Positions 43,901 to 64,000 of a DNA stretch of 64,000 nt are shown here, in pieces. The DNA comes from Malacoraja senta (lineage: Eukaryota): assembly GCA_038087875.1 (NCBI GenBank), contig JAXLNO010002966.1:186001-250000 (forward strand), in the 5' to 3' direction. The stretch's first letter is position 1. The number at the start of each line of letters is the position of its first letter. Made by a program: the position numbers.

Positions 43901-46900
43901 GACTGCTCCACTGCAGATGCTGGTCTACACAAAATATCTGAGTGGGACAGTATCTCTGGAGAACATGGATAGGCAATGTTTTGGGTCGGTAATAATGTTA
44001 ATTGTATCCCTTCGTTATAACCACTTCCCCAGCCAACAATGGGCCATTATGGGCTCCACCCTTCCTTGGTCATCTGTTGCTGGCCCTGATTTGTTCTATA
44101 TTGGTCCGTGTGTTTAAGAGAGTTAGATTTAGCTCTTAGGGCTAATGGAATCAAGAGATATGGGGAGAAATCAGGAACAGGGTACTGATTCTGGATGATC
44201 AGCCATGATCATATTAAATGGCGGTGCTAGCTCAAAGGTTCGAATGGCCTACTCCTGCACCTATTTTCTATGTTTCTATTCTATTCTTACCTCCAATTCC
44301 CTCCCCTCTATTTTCAGTCTGAAGGAGAGTCCCGACCCGAAACGTCACCCACGTTAGAGCTGCTGCCTTACAGTGCCAGAGACCCAGGTTCGATCCACAC
44401 TATGAGTGCTGTCTGTATGGAGTTTTACGTTCTCCCCGTGACCTTTGTGGGATTTCGCCAAGTGCTCCGGTTTCCTCCCACATGCCAAAGACGCTAGGGT
44501 TTTAATTGGCTTCGGTAAAAATTATAAATTACCCCGAATTGGTAAAGCTGCATCAATCTTCAGATAAATGCAGCCAACATGGTCTAGTGGTGGGATATCC
44601 AAGATGCTAAAAGTCAAACTCTTCCAGTCCGCAGTCCTCCCTACAGCCCTCTGTGCCACTGACACATGGAAAATCAATGTGAAGATGAAAAAGAAATTGG
44701 ATGCATCCCAACAACGTTGCTTGAGGAGGATCCTGAAGACTAGCTACAGAGACCACATCACAAACGAGATCTACCAGGGAAACTGCAACAAAGCCTCTCA
44801 GCCAGGACATGGAGGGACGCAGGATGAAATCTGCAGGACATGTACTCAGAATCTCACCAGAACGTGCACCTAAGATAGCAATGACATGGCAAGCTGATGG
44901 AAGAAGGAAAAGAGGCCGAACAAAACTCACATGAGGTGAACATTCTGGTAGGATTTGGAAGCCCGGGACGCTAACCTATCGAGGGTGGAAGACGTCGCAC
45001 ATAACCGAACAGAATGGCGAAAGCTTGCTGCCCAATGCACTCAACAGTGTGGGAGGAACTAAGTCTAAGTATGTAAGTGTGTGTAGGATAGCGTTAGTGT
45101 GCAGGGATCGCTAATCGGCATGGACTCGGTGGGCTGAAGGGGCCGGTTTCCGTGCTGTATATCTAAACAAAACAAAAAAATCACCCATTGTTTTTCTCCA
45201 GATATGCTGCCCGGCCCATTGAGTAACTCCAGCACTTTGTGTCTATCACGATAATGTTATTGAAGGGAGTTACCATAAATAGTGCGTGAACAGCTTATTG
45301 GGAAATCAGGCTTGTGCTTGGATCTGTGATGTGTAAGAGATGGCTGTACTCCCAATACCTAATCCATACCATGGAACCAAACTCAGAACAAATAAAGAAC
45401 ATGCAGAGAGCAGCGGTTAAGGTCAGAGCAGAAAAATAACAGCAGCCAAAGCCTTGTGCCTTAAAACTCTCAAAACTTTATTTCAAAAAACAAATTGATG
45501 AAATTCATTTATAATAGCTATTTTCTTAAACAACAAATTAAAAACAAGGAATATTGAAAACTATTTACAAAAGTATACACACAGAAAGTTTCACTGATAC
45601 CACAGGCAATTTGTGTTTAACATCTGTGTCCAATACCGTAGATACATTTTCTTTTTACATTAATGCACTCAATGCTGAGAGAAAGTGCCGAGATTTTGAA
45701 ACTTTCATGTAGGTGGTGGTTTGGGGCAGTCCGTGTCTGATGAACATGTTAGTTACCGGTGCTTCAGCAAAGGTNNNNNNNNNNNNNNNNNNNNNNNNNN
45801 NNNNNNNNNNNNNNNNNNNNNNNNNNNNNNNNNNNNNNNNNNNNNNNNNNNNNNNNNNNNNNNNNNNNNNNNNNNNNNNNNNNNNNNNNNNNNNNNNNNN
45901 NNNNNNNNNNNNNNNNNNNNNNNNNNNNNNNNNNNNNNNNNNNNNNNNNNNNNNNNNNNNNNNNNNNNNTGGATGAGAGTGAGTGAGAGTAAGTGAGTGA
46001 AGAGTGAGTGAGTGTGAGTGGGTGAGAGAGTGAGTGTGAAGATTGAGTGAGAGTGAGTGGGATTAAACAAGTGAGTGAAGTGTGAGTCATTGAGAGTGAG
46101 TGTGAGTGAGTTAGTGTGAATGAGTGATAGTGAGTGAGCGAGTGAGCAGGTGAAAGTGACTGAGTGAGAGAAAGTGTGAGTGAGTGTGTGAGTGAGAGTG
46201 AGTGAGTGAGTGGGTGAGTGAGAGAGTGGGTGAAGAGTGAGAGAGTGGGTGTGTGAGAGTGAGTGAGTGTGTTAATGTGAGAGTGAGTGAAAGTGGGAGA
46301 GAGTGAGTGTGATTGAGTGAGAGTGAGCGTGAATGAGTGGGTGAAGGGTGAGTGAGTGAAGAGTGAGTGAGATTGTGAGAGTGAGTGCATGAGTGAGTGA
46401 AGAGTGAGAGTGAATGAGTGGGTAAGTGAGTGAGAGTAGGTGAGTGAGAGTGATTGGGTGAGTGAGCGTGAGTGAAAGTGAGTGAGAGCATGAGTGAGTA
46501 GGTGAGTCAGTTGGTGAAGAGTGGGTGGGTGAGTGAATAAGTGGGTGAAGAGTGAGTGGGTGAAGAATGACTGGGTGAACATTGAGTGAGTGCGTGGGTG
46601 AAAGTGAGTGTGAGTGAGAGGGTGAGTGAGGGTGAGTGAGAGTGGATGGGGGAGTGAGGATGTGAGAATGTGTGAACGGGTGAGAGTGAGTGAGAGTTAG
46701 TGTGAGTGGGTGAGTGAGTTGGTGAGTGAGTGAGAATGAGTGAGAATGAGTGAGTGGGTGACAGAGTGAGTGTAAGTGAGTGAGAGAGTGAGTGAGTGGG
46801 TGAAGAGTAAGTGGGTGAAGAGTGAGTGAGTGAGTGCGTGGGTGAGTGAGAGTAAGTGAAAGTGAGTGGGTGAGTGAAAGTGAGTGGGTCAGAATGAGTG

Positions 46901-61900: not shown

Positions 61901-64000
61901 AGTGAGTTAGTGAGTAAAGAGTGAGTGAATGAATGAGAGTGAGTGAGTGACTGAGAGTGAGTGGGTGGGTGACTGAGAGTGAGTGGATGAGTGAAGAGTG
62001 AGTGAGTGAGTGAGAGAGTGAGTGTGAGTGAGTCGGTGAGTGTGTGGGTGAGTGAAGAGTGAGAGTGGGTGAGCGAGAGTGAGTGTGAGAGTGAGACTGA
62101 GTAAGAGTGGGTGAGAGAATGAGTGAGTGAGTGTGGGTGAATGAGTGAGAGTGAGTGAGAGTGGGTGAGTGAGTGAAAGTGAATGGGTGAGATTGAGTGA
62201 GAGTCAATGAGATAGTGAGTGCGTGAATAAGAGTGAGTGGGTGTGAGATTGAGTGAGAGTGTGGGTGAGTGAGTGTGAGTGGGTGAGTGAGAGTGAGTGA
62301 AGAGTGTGAGAGTGAGAGTGTGTGGGTCAGTGAGTGAGGGAGTGAGATTGTGTGACTATGAGTGGGTGGGTGATAGTGAGAGTGTGAGAGTAAGTGAGTG
62401 AAGAGCGAGTGAGTGGTAGTGAGAGAGTGTGAGTGAGTGAGCGAGTGGATGAAGAGTGTGAGTGAGAGTGAGTGAAGGTGAGTGAGAGAGTGGGTGTGCA
62501 TGAGTGAGAAAATGAGTGAGTGAGAGTGAGTGAGTGGGTGAATGAGAGTGAGTGAGTGAGTGAGAGATGGAATGTAAATAAAGTTGAAGCGGGAGATGTA
62601 ATGTAAATGCCAGCGCCTCTTGAGGCCAGGAGCCCTGTAGTCCAGGATAGAGACCTGTAGCACAGAATAGAGACCTGCAGCCCAGGATATAGACCTGGAG
62701 CCCAGGATGGAGACCTGTAGCCCAGGATATAGACCTGTGGCCCAGGATAGACCTGTAGCCCAGGATAGAGACCTATAGCCCAGGATAGAGACTTGTAGCC
62801 CAGGATATTGACCTATAGCCCAGGATAGACCTCTGAAGCCGGGGATTGTCCACATTTAGACAGACGTGAGAAACCTAGATGGAGGAGCCAGTCTCCCAGA
62901 AGCAAGAAATTGTCTCCTAGATGGAGCCAATCCCCCAGGTGACATGATTCGCCGAGACGCAGCGAGATGCAGGAGCTACACGTAAATGAAACCCCAAAGT
63001 TAAAGGGTGAGATGTAACGTTTGTATTTGTCATCAATATTAATATTGGAAATAGTTTGTTATCCACATTAAATTGATTCAAGGTTAAATTTATTAGTATT
63101 GAAAAAATTGTGACCTCAAATTTGAAGGGGGAGATGTAATGTAAATAAATTTGAAGGCGGAGATGTAATGTAAATGCCAGCGTCTCTTGAGGCCAGGAGT
63201 ACAAGCTGGCGAGTTGGCGTGTGACAGCAGACATTACAGAGTGTGAGTGAGCGGGAATATGGGTGAGCGAGAGTGAATGAGAGAGTGGGGTGAGAGAGAG
63301 TGAGTGTGAGTGTGAGTGGGTGAGTGAGTGTGGGTGTTGAGTGAGTGAACAGTGAGAGAGTGGGTGGGTGAGTGCGTGGGTGAGTGAAGAGTGAGAGAGT
63401 GGGTGAATGAAGAGTGAGTGAGTGAAGATTGAGTGAGTGAGAGTAAGTGAGTGAGAATAACTGAGTGGGTGAGTGAGTGTGAAAGTGAGTGAGTGCCATG
63501 AGAGAGAGACAGTGAGTGAGTGGGAGTGACGGAGATTGTGAGTGGGTTGATGAGTGCAAGTGAGTGTGCGTGAGTAAGACTAAGTGGGTGTATAGTGAGT
63601 GTGGGTGAGTGAAGAGTGAGTGAGTGAGGGTGAGTGTGTGGGTGAGTGAAGAGCAAGAGTGAGGGAGTGGGTGAGTGAGTGAGTGAGTGAGTGTGAGAGT
63701 GAGTGTGTGGGTGAGTGAGTGAGTGAAAGTGAGTGGGTGAGAGAGAGTGAGTGAAGAATGAGTGAGAATGAGTGATCGTGGGTGAGAGTGAATGATTGTG
63801 GGTGAGTGAGAGCGAGCGAGTGGGTGAGAGAGTTTGAGTAAGTGAATAGTGGTTGAGTGGGTGAGTGAGGGTGAGTGAGAGTGGGTGAGAGAGTGAGTAG
63901 GTGAATGAGAGTGGGTGAGTGAATGTGAGTGTGACCGTGAGAGAAGAGTGATTGTGAGTGATTGAGTGAAGAGTGAGTGGGTGAGTGAGAGTGTAAGAGA

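What the first reader, a model, noticed from the sequence alone, without database searches (positions are those of the whole stretch)
45970..64000. 4.6-kb macrosatellite built from scrambled GTGA microsatellite plus a fixed complex island
Seen: the G-rich blocks are not a simple repeat but an irregular string of short modules copied nearly base for base from unit to unit, with internal sub-duplications in unit 1. Inference: a microsatellite first diversified by slippage and was then amplified as a large unit. I do not recognise this family. It could be a subtelomeric, centromeric or locus-specific array, and its copy number may vary between individuals.
Basis: partly seen in the sequence, partly recalled or inferred. 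Interest (0 to 1): 0.65.

Follow-up and report, generated by a model that had tools for sequence, protein, structure and literature searches.

The report
Noncoding 4.6-kb G-rich tandem array
This is a real, non-coding tandem array whose 4.6-kb unit (mostly a decayed GTGA-type microsatellite, plus a 0.66-kb complex island) is repeated head to tail, and nothing in it points to a gene or a known functional element.

Summary
From about 47.5 kb to the window end, a unit made of a complex island plus a 4-kb G-rich block repeats head to tail. The periods are 5813, 4636 and 4609 bp.

- **Copying is real.** G-blocks aligned in register match at 98.8-99.9% of aligned bases. The same blocks out of register match at only 74-76%.
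- **Order of events.** Slippage continued afterwards: units 2 and 3 differ by 14 indels, all of even length, against 7 substitutions.
- **Corrections.**
  - The first 1.5 kb (45970-47475) is not a copy. It is a differently scrambled G-rich flank.
  - Unit 1 is 5.8 kb and keeps 281 bp of island that the later units lack.
  - The "sub-duplication" in unit 1 is only weakly supported.
- **Divergence** falls with depth into the array: about 1.1%, then 0.2-0.6%, then 0.15%.
- **What was looked for and not found:** coding signal, Rfam family, terminal inverted repeats or transposon protein domains, CpG island, CTCF-like core, G-quadruplex motif, telomere repeat.

Best reading: a neutral macrosatellite born by unequal exchange between G-rich blocks and homogenised since. 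Whether the family has been described, and where it sits on the chromosome, could not be checked. Interest is low to moderate.

The parts
45970..47475 (+). G0: a G-rich degenerate GTGA/GA/GT block directly after the 195-N gap. It is the left flank of the array and is not a copy of the other G-blocks.
   Evidence: No hit at 90% or above to G1-G4. Only 1-2 exact 32-mers shared with G1, G2 and G3. In-register windows do not stand out. Composition matches the other blocks. A modest internal peak at lag of about 270 (0.506 against 0.422 +/- 0.024).
47476..47507 (+). Last 32 bp of G0, identical to the last 32 bp of G1, G2 and G3. This is the likely left junction of the amplified unit; homology may reach back to about 47440.
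   Evidence: Exact matches 47476-47507 = 53289-53320 = 57925-57956 = 62534-62565; alignment A2.
47508..53320 (+). Unit 1 (5813 bp): long island 47508-48479 plus G1 block 48480-53320.
   Evidence: Anchors. About 1.0-1.2% substitution divergence from units 2-4 in both island and G-block.
53321..57956 (+). Unit 2 (4636 bp): island 53321-53981 plus G2 block 53982-57956.
57957..62565 (+). Unit 3 (4609 bp): island 57957-58618 plus G3 block 58619-62565.
   Evidence: G2 against G3: 7 mismatches and 14 even-length indels.
62566..64000 (+). Unit 4, cut by the window end: island 62566-63227 plus the first 773 bp of its G-block.
   Evidence: I3 against I4: 1 substitution in 662. G3 against G4: 1 in 773.
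47572..47774 (+). 20-bp minisatellite (GAGACCTGTAGCCCAGGATA, about 10 copies) inside the island. Also at 53384-53587, 58020-58223 and 62629-62832.
   Evidence: TRF; the repeat finder family D1.
47501..47574 (+). 74-nt direct repeat bracketing the island. The second copy is at 48378-48451 (91% identical, 877 bp apart). It contains the 29-bp motif and a 24-bp GCCAGCGCCTCTTGAGGCCAGGAG box.
   Evidence: the repeat finder family D2; anchor positions.
47919..48199 (+). 281-bp A+T-rich stretch present only in the unit 1 island. Units 2-4 share the same deletion.
   Evidence: Alignment A1. The fourth copy of the 24-nt motif D3 (47907-47930) spans the left deletion edge, so the long form is taken as ancestral (inference).
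48341..48427 (+). 29-bp tandem repeat (AAATTTGAAGGGGGAGATGTAATGTAAAT): 3 copies in unit 1 and 2 in the later units (58509-58566, 63118-63175).
   Evidence: TRF; alignment A1.
50070..51457 (+). Middle of G1 (1388 bp), which is not collinear with the 566-bp middle of G2 (55462-56027). It may contain an old internal duplicate of 51391-52009.
   Evidence: Break in the chain of exact matches. Best off-diagonal match is 81% over 631 columns, 377 bits.

Best explanation
This is a non-coding macrosatellite in a non-mammalian vertebrate genome.

**Origin.** An old compound microsatellite of the (GN)n type (GTGA, GA and GT steps) had already decayed into a non-periodic G-rich string. It lay on both sides of a roughly 1-kb complex island. 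The island is itself built of a 20-bp minisatellite, 29-bp repeats and a bracketing 74-nt direct repeat.

**Amplification.** Misaligned (unequal) exchange between the two similar G-rich blocks duplicated the segment 'island + about 4-5 kb of G-block'. Further unequal crossing-over and gene conversion amplified and homogenised the unit.
- A variant with a 281-bp island deletion and a shorter G-block took over the interior.
- The outermost unit (unit 1) kept the older form.
- The G-rich block to its left (G0) was never part of the unit.

**Ongoing change.** Replication slippage still adds and removes 2- and 4-bp steps in the G-blocks.

**Function.** The array most likely has no sequence-specific function. 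Its likely effects are structural: copy-number instability and extreme strand asymmetry.

**Shown:** the tandem structure, the hierarchy of identities, the divergence gradient, the indel spectrum, and the absence of coding or RNA-family signals.

**Inferred:** the unequal-exchange origin, the flank status of G0, and neutrality.
For: - **Tandem periods** of 5813, 4636 and 4609 bp.
- **Hierarchy of identities.** In register 98.8-99.9% of aligned bases, out of register 73.8-75.8%.
- **Co-amplification.** Island and G-block diverge equally between units. Unit 1 against units 2-4 is 1.06-1.21% in the island and 0.92-1.22% in the G-block.
- **Gradient.** Unit 1 to unit 2 about 1.1%; unit 2 to unit 3 0.18% (G-block) and 0.61% (island); unit 3 to unit 4 0.13-0.15%.
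- **Shared derived deletion** of 281 bp in units 2-4.
- **Left flank.** G0 shares only its last 32 bp with the ends of G1-G3 and is otherwise at background similarity.
- **Slippage signature.**
  - 14 of 14 indels (G2 against G3) and 49 of 55 (G1 against G2 collinear parts) are of even length. Most are 2 or 4 bp.
  - Indel-to-substitution ratios are 14:7 and 55:37 in G-blocks, against 1:4 and 0:1 in the islands of units 2-4.
- **No coding signal.**
  - 0 of 14 and 5 of 55 indels are multiples of 3.
  - Lag-3 identity is 0.13.
  - The plus strand is full of TGA.
  - Minus-strand ORFs are S/L/T/H low complexity with 0 Pfam hits.
- **No RNA family or tRNA.** None at Rfam gathering score. At E<=1 there are only two mir-143 matches, at 20-21 bits against a gathering score of 60.
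Against: - The left edge is hidden by a 195-N gap, and the right edge lies beyond the window. 'Edge unit' and 'flank' are therefore inferences from one side only.
- G0 could instead be a true unit whose G-block was remodelled.
- Neutrality is an argument from absence. Transcription, chromatin and protein binding were not testable.
- Equal divergence of island and G-block says little under concerted evolution.
- Island divergence between units 2 and 3 (4 in 661) is higher than G-block divergence (7 in 3927). The numbers are small and this is unexplained.
- No reads were available to confirm the assembly.
Confidence: 0.78

Rival explanations
1. The window shows the edge of a much larger chromosome-scale satellite block (pericentromeric, centromeric or subtelomeric) rather than a small locus-specific array. 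The origin and turnover mechanisms would be the same; scale and chromosomal role would differ.
For: - The array runs off the window end with units becoming ever more alike.
- The 45-kb flank is rich in retroelements and has no recognisable host gene: LINE reverse-transcriptase ORFs at 983-2733, 9444-10025 and 36265-39670, and an LTR-type integrase at 18581-20125. Ten further ORFs gave 0 Pfam families.
- An assembly gap sits at the boundary.
Against: - There is no telomere repeat in the window.
- A kb-sized unit that is 83-86% decayed microsatellite is not the usual build of centromeric satellites (my knowledge, not tested).
- Nothing in the window measures the array's length.
Confidence: 0.25
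2. The array is a functional, transcribed or architectural macrosatellite. It could be a chromatin anchor like DXZ4 or Firre. Alternatively it could yield a G-rich RNA that forms R-loops and binds U1 snRNP through its many GTGAGT sites.
For: - Extreme strand asymmetry: GC skew of 0.67-0.91 across 18 kb, and 96-123 C against roughly 1860-2275 G per G-block.
- 966 GTGAGT hexamers in the window's G-blocks, which is the 5' splice-site core (113 + 304 + 250 + 251 + 48).
- 102-133 GGG runs per full block.
- High interior homogeneity.
Against: - GTGAGT is an automatic by-product of (GTGA)n.
- The island is not a CpG island: GC 0.42-0.46 and CpG o/e 0.39-0.46.
- No CTCF-like core (motif recalled from memory) with 1 mismatch or fewer inside the array; the only 2 matches in the window are at 19.6 and 22.5 kb.
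- No Rfam family.
- The island is no better conserved than the G-block.
- There is no expression evidence of any kind.
Confidence: 0.07
3. The array is an assembly artefact. A shorter or different repeat was expanded or mis-joined by the assembler next to a gap.
For: - The array abuts a 195-N gap.
- The interior units are almost identical. This is the kind of sequence assemblers handle badly.
Against: - The units are not identical copies. They differ by specific substitutions and indels that follow an orderly gradient.
- Unit 1 carries a distinct long island and a longer G-block.
- The periods differ (5813, 4636, 4609).
- A collapsed or stuttered assembly would more likely give identical copies (inference).
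Confidence: 0.06
4. The unit is derived from a mobile element, such as a non-autonomous element carrying internal tandem repeats and a microsatellite tail, that was amplified in tandem.
For: - The island is bracketed by a 74-nt direct repeat (91% identical) and holds internal minisatellites. Some composite elements are built this way; only a search listing was seen for the tandem-repeat-containing MITEs paper PMC3879986.
- The neighbourhood is rich in transposable elements.
Against: - No terminal inverted repeats; the only inverted pair is 19 nt at 79%.
- No Pfam family on the three minus-strand array ORFs tested.
- No island copy in the 45.8 kb upstream (blastn, word size 9, E<=0.01: 0 hits).
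- No relative of the translated island among predicted proteins of 226-721 aa.
Confidence: 0.07
5. The minus strand encodes a long, repetitive, low-complexity (Ser/Leu/Thr/His-rich) protein.
For: Stop-free minus-strand frames of up to 631 aa.
Against: - All three minus frames are open simply because (TCAC)-type sequence lacks stop codons.
- Indels between units are not multiples of 3: 0 of 14 and 5 of 55.
- There is no 3-base periodicity; lag-3 identity is 0.13.
- 0 Pfam families.
Confidence: 0.01

Closest known systems
Vertebrate macrosatellites with embedded microsatellites (human DXZ4, RNU2)
   Same: - The unit is kb-sized and repeated head to tail.
- Monomers within an array are 99% or more alike.
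- Most variation between monomers lies in internal microsatellites. This is reported for DXZ4 (passages of PMC3081327 read) and for the CT tract of RNU2 (passages of PMC5687341 read). Here G2 and G3 differ by 14 slippage-type indels against 7 substitutions.
   Different: - In DXZ4 the microsatellites make up less than 5% of the monomer, and the rest is a unique CpG island with a promoter (PMC3081327).
- Here 83-86% of the unit is decayed microsatellite.
- The island is not a CpG island.
- No CTCF-like core was found.
- No snRNA or other Rfam gene is present.
Higher-order repeat organisation of satellite DNA (for example alpha-satellite HORs; recalled, not tested here)
   Same: The logic is the same two-level one. 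Old, diverged short repeats sit inside young, nearly identical long repeats, and the edge units are more diverged than the interior ones. Here the figures are 74-76% against 98.8-99.9%, with a gradient of 1.1%, then 0.2-0.6%, then 0.15%.
   Different: - The base repeat is 2-4 bp with no fixed monomer register, and there is no long-range period.
- A non-repetitive island is part of the unit.
- There is no evidence of centromeric location.
Compound or imperfect ('cryptically simple') microsatellites
   Same: The G-blocks are strings of GTGA, GAGA, GTGT and GGGT steps with lag-2 and lag-4 periodicity, and indels come in 2- and 4-bp steps.
   Different: - Each block is 4-5 kb long.
- The longest perfect (GTGA)n is only 5 units.
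- The whole string is copied as a block.
Immunoglobulin class-switch regions (recalled; considered because of kb-long G-rich degenerate repeats)
   Same: Kb-long, strongly G-skewed, degenerate short repeats that would favour R-loops if transcribed from the G-rich strand (skew; the R-loop point is inference).
   Different: - No Pfam family on the three minus-strand array ORFs or on most flanking ORFs tested.
- C is only about 2.5% of the block, so C-containing motifs such as those I recall for switch regions can only be rare; they were not counted.
- The block is part of a near-identical tandem unit.

Membership tests
Macrosatellite (tandem repeat with a unit of several kb; definition as in PMC5687341, passage read) | Repeat unit of several kb | tested here: met
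   Units of 5813, 4636 and 4609 bp.
Macrosatellite | Head-to-tail tandem arrangement of highly similar units | tested here: met
   Three full units plus a partial fourth on one strand. Identity in register is 98.8-99.9%, against 74-76% out of register.
Macrosatellite | Copy number varies between individuals | not testable with these tools
   Only one assembly window was available; there were no reads or other individuals.
DXZ4-type architectural macrosatellite | Each monomer is a CpG island with a promoter | tested here: not met
   Islands have GC 0.42-0.46 and CpG o/e 0.39-0.46. G-blocks have 36-43 CpG each. Promoter activity was not testable.
DXZ4-type architectural macrosatellite | A CTCF binding site in each monomer | tested here: not met
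   The IUPAC core CCASYAGRKGGCRSY (recalled from memory), with 1 mismatch or fewer, gave 0 matches in 45970-64000 and 2 elsewhere in the window. This is a consensus scan only, and binding was not testable.
Gene-bearing macrosatellite (RNU2, D4Z4, RS447 type) | An RNA gene or protein ORF in each unit | tested here: not met
   Rfam at gathering score gave 0 matches. At E<=1 there were only mir-143 matches at 20-21 bits against a gathering score of 60. tRNA search gave 0. Pfam gave 0 on the minus-strand ORFs. The indels do not preserve reading frame.
Simple microsatellite | Uninterrupted tandem copies of a 1-6 bp motif | tested here: not met
   TRF period 4 gives only 59-64% matches with 15-17% indels. 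The longest perfect (GTGA)n is 5 units.
Higher-order-repeat satellite | A fixed monomer length within the long unit | tested here: not met
   No autocorrelation peak beyond about 40 bp in G1 or G2. The TRF periods of 113, 94 and 35 reach only 62-71% matches.
Transposable element (DNA transposon, MITE or LTR element) | Terminal inverted or long terminal repeats, transposable-element protein domains, and dispersed copies | tested here: inconclusive
   No terminal inverted repeats; a 74-nt direct repeat brackets the island. No Pfam domain. No copy in the 45.8-kb flank. Genome-wide copies were not testable.
Subtelomeric or centromeric satellite | Position next to telomere repeats, or CENP-A association | not testable with these tools
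   No (TTAGGG)3 with 2 mismatches or fewer in the window. The chromosomal position of the window is unknown.
Non-B DNA tract (G-quadruplex, H-DNA, Z-DNA) | Four G3+ runs with loops of 7 nt or less; long homopurine mirror runs; long (GT)n | tested here: not met
   0 canonical G-quadruplex motifs in any block. The longest purine run is 10-13 nt and the longest (GT)n is 8-10 nt.

The most novel reading that the evidence does not exclude
The array may be a transcribed architectural locus. Read from the G-rich strand, each unit would yield about 4 kb of RNA that is 47% G and 2.5% C and carries about 250 GTGAGT 5' splice-site cores. Such a transcript should form stable R-loops and hold U1 snRNP on chromatin. 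The array would then be a copy-number-dependent nuclear anchor or splicing-factor sink, of a kind not described outside mammals. The present evidence does not exclude this, but nothing supports it directly.
Probability: 0.05. Interest if true: 0.6.

Novelty: new member of a known kind. Interest (0 to 1): 0.25.

Why it matters
**As it stands.** This is a clean worked example of how a macrosatellite is born and kept alike.
- A decayed microsatellite supplies the misalignment substrate.
- One left junction can be placed to within about 35 bp.
- The edge unit keeps the ancestral form.
- Slippage continues inside young copies.

**Practical value.**
- It is a probable copy-number-variable marker.
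- It flags a region where the assembly needs long-read validation.
- It is a repeat-library entry that should be masked as one unit rather than as thousands of imperfect (GTGA)n hits.

It would matter more only if the array proved to be transcribed, chromatin-organising, or conserved across species.

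Tried and rejected
- **Rfam.** The whole window at gathering score gave 0 matches. The stretch 47400-54100 at E<=1 gave only two mir-143 matches in the 20-bp minisatellite (20-21 bits against a gathering score of 60), taken as chance.
- **tRNA or tmRNA.** 0.
- **Coding reading of the minus strand.** Rejected.
- **Transposable-element reading.** No terminal inverted repeats, no domains, and no island copy in the flank.
- **Protein-space search for the family.** The translated island (P0122, residues 1-97) found none at E<=0.001 among 3155 candidates. 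Only proteins of 226-721 aa were searched, and non-coding eukaryotic DNA is poorly represented there, so this is weak.
- **CTCF-like core.** None in the array (motif recalled).
- **CpG island.** No.
- **G-quadruplex, H-DNA, Z-DNA.** No.
- **Telomere repeat.** None.
- **Long-range periodicity inside the G-blocks.** None.
- **Literature.**
  - 'macrosatellite' plus 'elasmobranch': 0 papers.
  - GTGA, AGTG or ACTC microsatellite searches gave only generic marker papers; listings only were seen.
  - Three island strings searched 'anywhere' gave 0 papers.
  - Three strings from the SINE-like repeat at 42.5 kb gave 2 unrelated primer hits.
- **Organism.**
  - Atlas and protein searches with the LINE ORF show only a chordate whose L1-type element is nearest to elements named from teleost fishes. 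Those are 40-59% identical, and the best unnamed hits are 53-57%.
  - The species was not determined.
  - My impression that the 66-bp repeat at 42461-42593 looks like a cartilaginous-fish SINE is recall only.

Full report
**What is in the sequence**

From 45,970 to the window end the plus strand is extremely G-rich and C-poor. GC skew is 0.67-0.91, against -0.25 to 0.17 upstream. For example, 48,001-52,000 holds 147 C and 1759 G. TRF finds one and the same 20-bp minisatellite (about 10 copies) at 47572-47774, 53384-53587, 58020-58223 and 62629-62832. Exact anchor strings of the complex island recur at 47508, 53321, 57957 and 62566.

The region is therefore a head-to-tail array with these parts:
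- unit 1, 47508-53320 (5813 bp);
- unit 2, 53321-57956 (4636 bp);
- unit 3, 57957-62565 (4609 bp);
- a fourth unit cut by the window end;
- a further G-rich block, G0 (45970-47507), in front of unit 1.

G0 begins directly after a run of 195 N (45775-45969). I did not try to fill or look up the N stretch. As a result the left limit of the G-rich DNA is unknown, and so is the right limit of the array.

**Is the copying more than chance?**

Yes. The G-blocks are low-complexity, and any two stretches of them align at 73.8-75.8% whatever the offset. That is the control. In register the picture is quite different:
- G2 against G3: 3920 matches, 7 mismatches and 14 indels totalling 68 bases.
- G3 against G4: 1 mismatch in 773.
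- G2 against G4: 1 mismatch and one 2-bp indel in 771.
- G1 against G2, left 1.6 kb: collinear, 98.96% of aligned columns, with 18 indels.
- G1 against G2, right 1.9 kb: collinear, 98.78% of aligned columns, with 37 indels.

Exact words of 32 nt or more tell the same story. There are 52 of them (3312 nt) between G1 and G2, but only 6 within G2 and 12 within G1 off the diagonal.

**Anatomy of the unit**

The G-block makes up 83-86% of a unit.
- Its composition is G 47%, A 27%, T 23%, C 2.5%.
- Identity is high at lags 2 and 4 (0.48 and 0.63) and low at odd lags (0.11-0.13).
- GTGA occupies about 12% of positions, with spacings of 4, 6, 8, 10, 12 and so on.
- The longest perfect (GTGA)n is only five units.
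- The short-range order is lost within about 40 bp, and there is no longer period.

'Scrambled GTGA microsatellite' is thus a fair description. More exactly, it is a (GN)n string in which GTGA, GAGA, GTGT and GGGT steps alternate irregularly.

The island is 661-662 bp in units 2-4 and 972 bp in unit 1. It consists of:
- one and a half copies of a 29-bp motif;
- a 24-bp box;
- the 20-bp minisatellite;
- a stretch with four copies of a 24-nt motif;
- an A+T-rich part;
- two or three copies of the 29-bp motif;
- the 24-bp box again.

The island is therefore bracketed by a 74-nt direct repeat (47501-47574 and 48378-48451, 91% identical, 877 bp apart).

**Gradient and left boundary**

Substitution divergence falls with depth into the array.

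| Comparison | Island | G-block |
|---|---|---|
| Unit 1 against units 2-4 | 1.06-1.21% | 0.92-1.22% |
| Unit 2 against unit 3 | 0.61% | 0.18% |
| Unit 3 against unit 4 | 0.15% | 0.13% |

Units 2-4 share a 281-bp island deletion (47919-48199 is present only in unit 1) and have one 29-bp repeat fewer. The fourth copy of a 24-nt motif spans the left edge of that stretch, so I take the long form to be ancestral (inference). The G-block of unit 1 is 866 bp longer. Its middle (50070-51457) is not collinear with the 566-bp middle of G2.

The best candidate for an internal duplication is 50136-50701 against 51391-52009. It is 81% identical over 631 columns and scores 377 bits, against 216 for the next off-diagonal hit in G1 and 226 for the best in G2. 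That is suggestive rather than strong.

G0 behaves differently from all the other blocks:
- It has no hit at 90% or above to any other block.
- It shares 1-2 exact 32-mers with G1, G2 and G3.
- In 24 sliding-window tests (12 windows of 120 bp, each against G1 and against G2), the in-register position ranked first only once. That was the last 120 bp against G1.
- The last 32 bp of G0 (47476-47507) are identical to the last 32 bp of G1-G3.

Unit 1, the next most diverged unit, is still about 99% alike in aligned columns. A drop straight to background is therefore better explained by G0 lying outside the amplified segment than by gradual decay (inference). On this reading the left junction of the unit lies at about 47,440-47,476.

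**Mutation pattern**

In the G-blocks, indels outnumber substitutions, and they are overwhelmingly of even length.

| Comparison | Indels : substitutions | Even-length indels | Multiples of 3 |
|---|---|---|---|
| G2 against G3 | 14 : 7 | 14 of 14 | 0 of 14 |
| Collinear parts of G1 against G2 | 55 : 37 | 49 of 55 | 5 of 55 |

Most indels are 2 or 4 bp. The islands of units 2-4 show 0-1 small indels against 1-5 substitutions. This is the signature of replication slippage in dinucleotide and tetranucleotide steps, still acting after amplification. It also argues against any reading frame.

**What it is not**

- **Not coding.**
  - The plus strand is full of TGA.
  - All three minus-strand frames are open for hundreds of codons only because (TCAC)-type sequence lacks stops.
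  - The translations are S/L/T/H low complexity and match no Pfam family.
- **No known RNA family or tRNA**.
- **No clear mobile-element features:** no terminal inverted repeats and no island copy in the 45.8 kb upstream.
- **Not DXZ4-like:**
  - The island has GC 0.42-0.46 and CpG o/e 0.39-0.46.
  - A CTCF-like core, recalled from memory, has no match with 1 mismatch or fewer in the array.
- **No canonical non-B DNA tract:**
  - No G-quadruplex motif.
  - No purine run longer than 13 nt.
  - No (GT)n longer than 10 nt.
- **No telomere repeat** in the window.

**Context and organism**

The flank holds retroelement remains.
- An L1-type LINE has ORFs at 36265-38778 and 38726-39670, followed by an A48 tract at 40059-40106.
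- Further LINE reverse-transcriptase fragments lie at 983-2733 and 9444-10025.
- An LTR-type integrase lies at 18581-20125.
- Ten more ORFs between 21 and 42 kb have no Pfam family.

The LINE ORF's nearest atlas clusters are chordate. Its named relatives are L1-type proteins of teleost fishes at 40-59% identity, and the best, unnamed hits are 53-57%. No Alu-core motif occurs in the 64 kb. I therefore do not take the window for human, and I treated it as a non-mammalian vertebrate. The species was not determined.

**How it most likely arose and works**

- *Shown:* two-level identity, co-divergence of island and G-block, an edge-to-interior gradient, a shared derived deletion, and a slippage spectrum.
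- *Inferred:*
  1. An island lay between two decayed G-rich microsatellite blocks.
  2. Those blocks share about 75% identity and many short exact words, so they could misalign.
  3. Unequal exchange between them duplicated 'island + G-block'.
  4. Repeated unequal crossing-over and gene conversion then expanded and homogenised the array from the inside. This left the outermost unit older and the flank uncopied.

I think a sequence-specific function is unlikely. The island is no better conserved than the G-block, although concerted evolution blunts that test.

If the array is transcribed from the G-rich strand, two consequences would follow:
- R-loop-prone RNA, which is established behaviour of G-rich non-template strands (my knowledge);
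- about 250 GTGAGT 5' splice-site cores per unit.

I keep that as the boldest reading not excluded, at about 5%.

**Comparison with known kinds**

By the definition quoted in PMC5687341 (passage) this is a macrosatellite. DXZ4 and RNU2 also carry internal microsatellites that account for most variation between monomers (passages of PMC3081327 and of PMC5687341). In DXZ4, however, the microsatellites make up less than 5% of a CpG-island monomer. Here the proportions are reversed, and the defining DXZ4 features are not met. The two-level organisation resembles higher-order-repeat satellites (recalled), but without a fixed monomer.

**Limits**

- No eukaryotic genome collection and no repeat library (Dfam, Repbase) was available.
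None of them was scanned. Whether the island or the unit occurs elsewhere in this genome, or in other species, is unchecked.
- The statement that the family is not in print rests only, which returned listings or zero hits.
- Supplementary files of papers were not consulted.
- Reads, expression, chromatin and chromosomal position could not be examined.

**Verdict**

The array is real and well defined, and its history is partly reconstructable. It is an ordinary kind of object: a new member of the macrosatellite class with an unusually high share of decayed microsatellite.

Noticed in passing
window 36265-40106 (+): An L1-type LINE. A reverse-transcriptase ORF of 837 aa (36265-38778) is followed by a 314-aa ORF starting at 38726 in another frame, which has a weak zf-RVT match (21.3 bits, below the 27.5 cut-off). 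A 48-nt A tract lies at 40059-40106. The element is very A+T-rich (GC 0.30-0.33). The nearest named relatives are teleost L1-type proteins at 40-59% identity. No endonuclease domain was detected in the ORF, although full-length relatives of about 1266 aa carry one.
   Followed up: partly
window 17818-20125 (+): An LTR-retroelement pol remnant. The 514-aa ORF has Integrase_H2C2 and rve domains. The adjoining 279-aa ORF has no Pfam match.
   Followed up: no
window 983-2733 (+) and 9444-10025 (+): Further LINE fragments with RVT_1 and zf-RVT matches. The first 45 kb of the window looks like a graveyard of transposable elements with no recognisable host gene.
   Followed up: no
window 42461-42680 (+): Two tandem copies of a 66-bp unit (86% matches), followed by a stretch containing a tRNA B-box-like GGTTCGATCC. 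It looks like a SINE-related repeat. It reminded me of cartilaginous-fish SINEs, but that is recall only. Full-text searches for its strings gave nothing relevant.
   Followed up: partly
window 24001-36000: A 12-kb stretch with markedly low CpG o/e (0.30-0.37), against 0.46-0.77 in most of the rest of the flank. Its ORFs of 120 aa or more have no Pfam match.
   Followed up: no
window 27091-27244 (+): A 44-bp tandem repeat, 3.5 copies, 75% matches.
   Followed up: no
window 45775-45969: A run of 195 N exactly at the transition from unique sequence to the G-rich DNA, so the true left boundary of the G-rich block cannot be seen.
   Followed up: no
window 53321-53981 vs 57957-58618: Between units 2 and 3 the island shows more substitutions per site (4 in 661, all transitions) than the G-block (7 in 3927). 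The numbers are small and this is unexplained.
   Followed up: no
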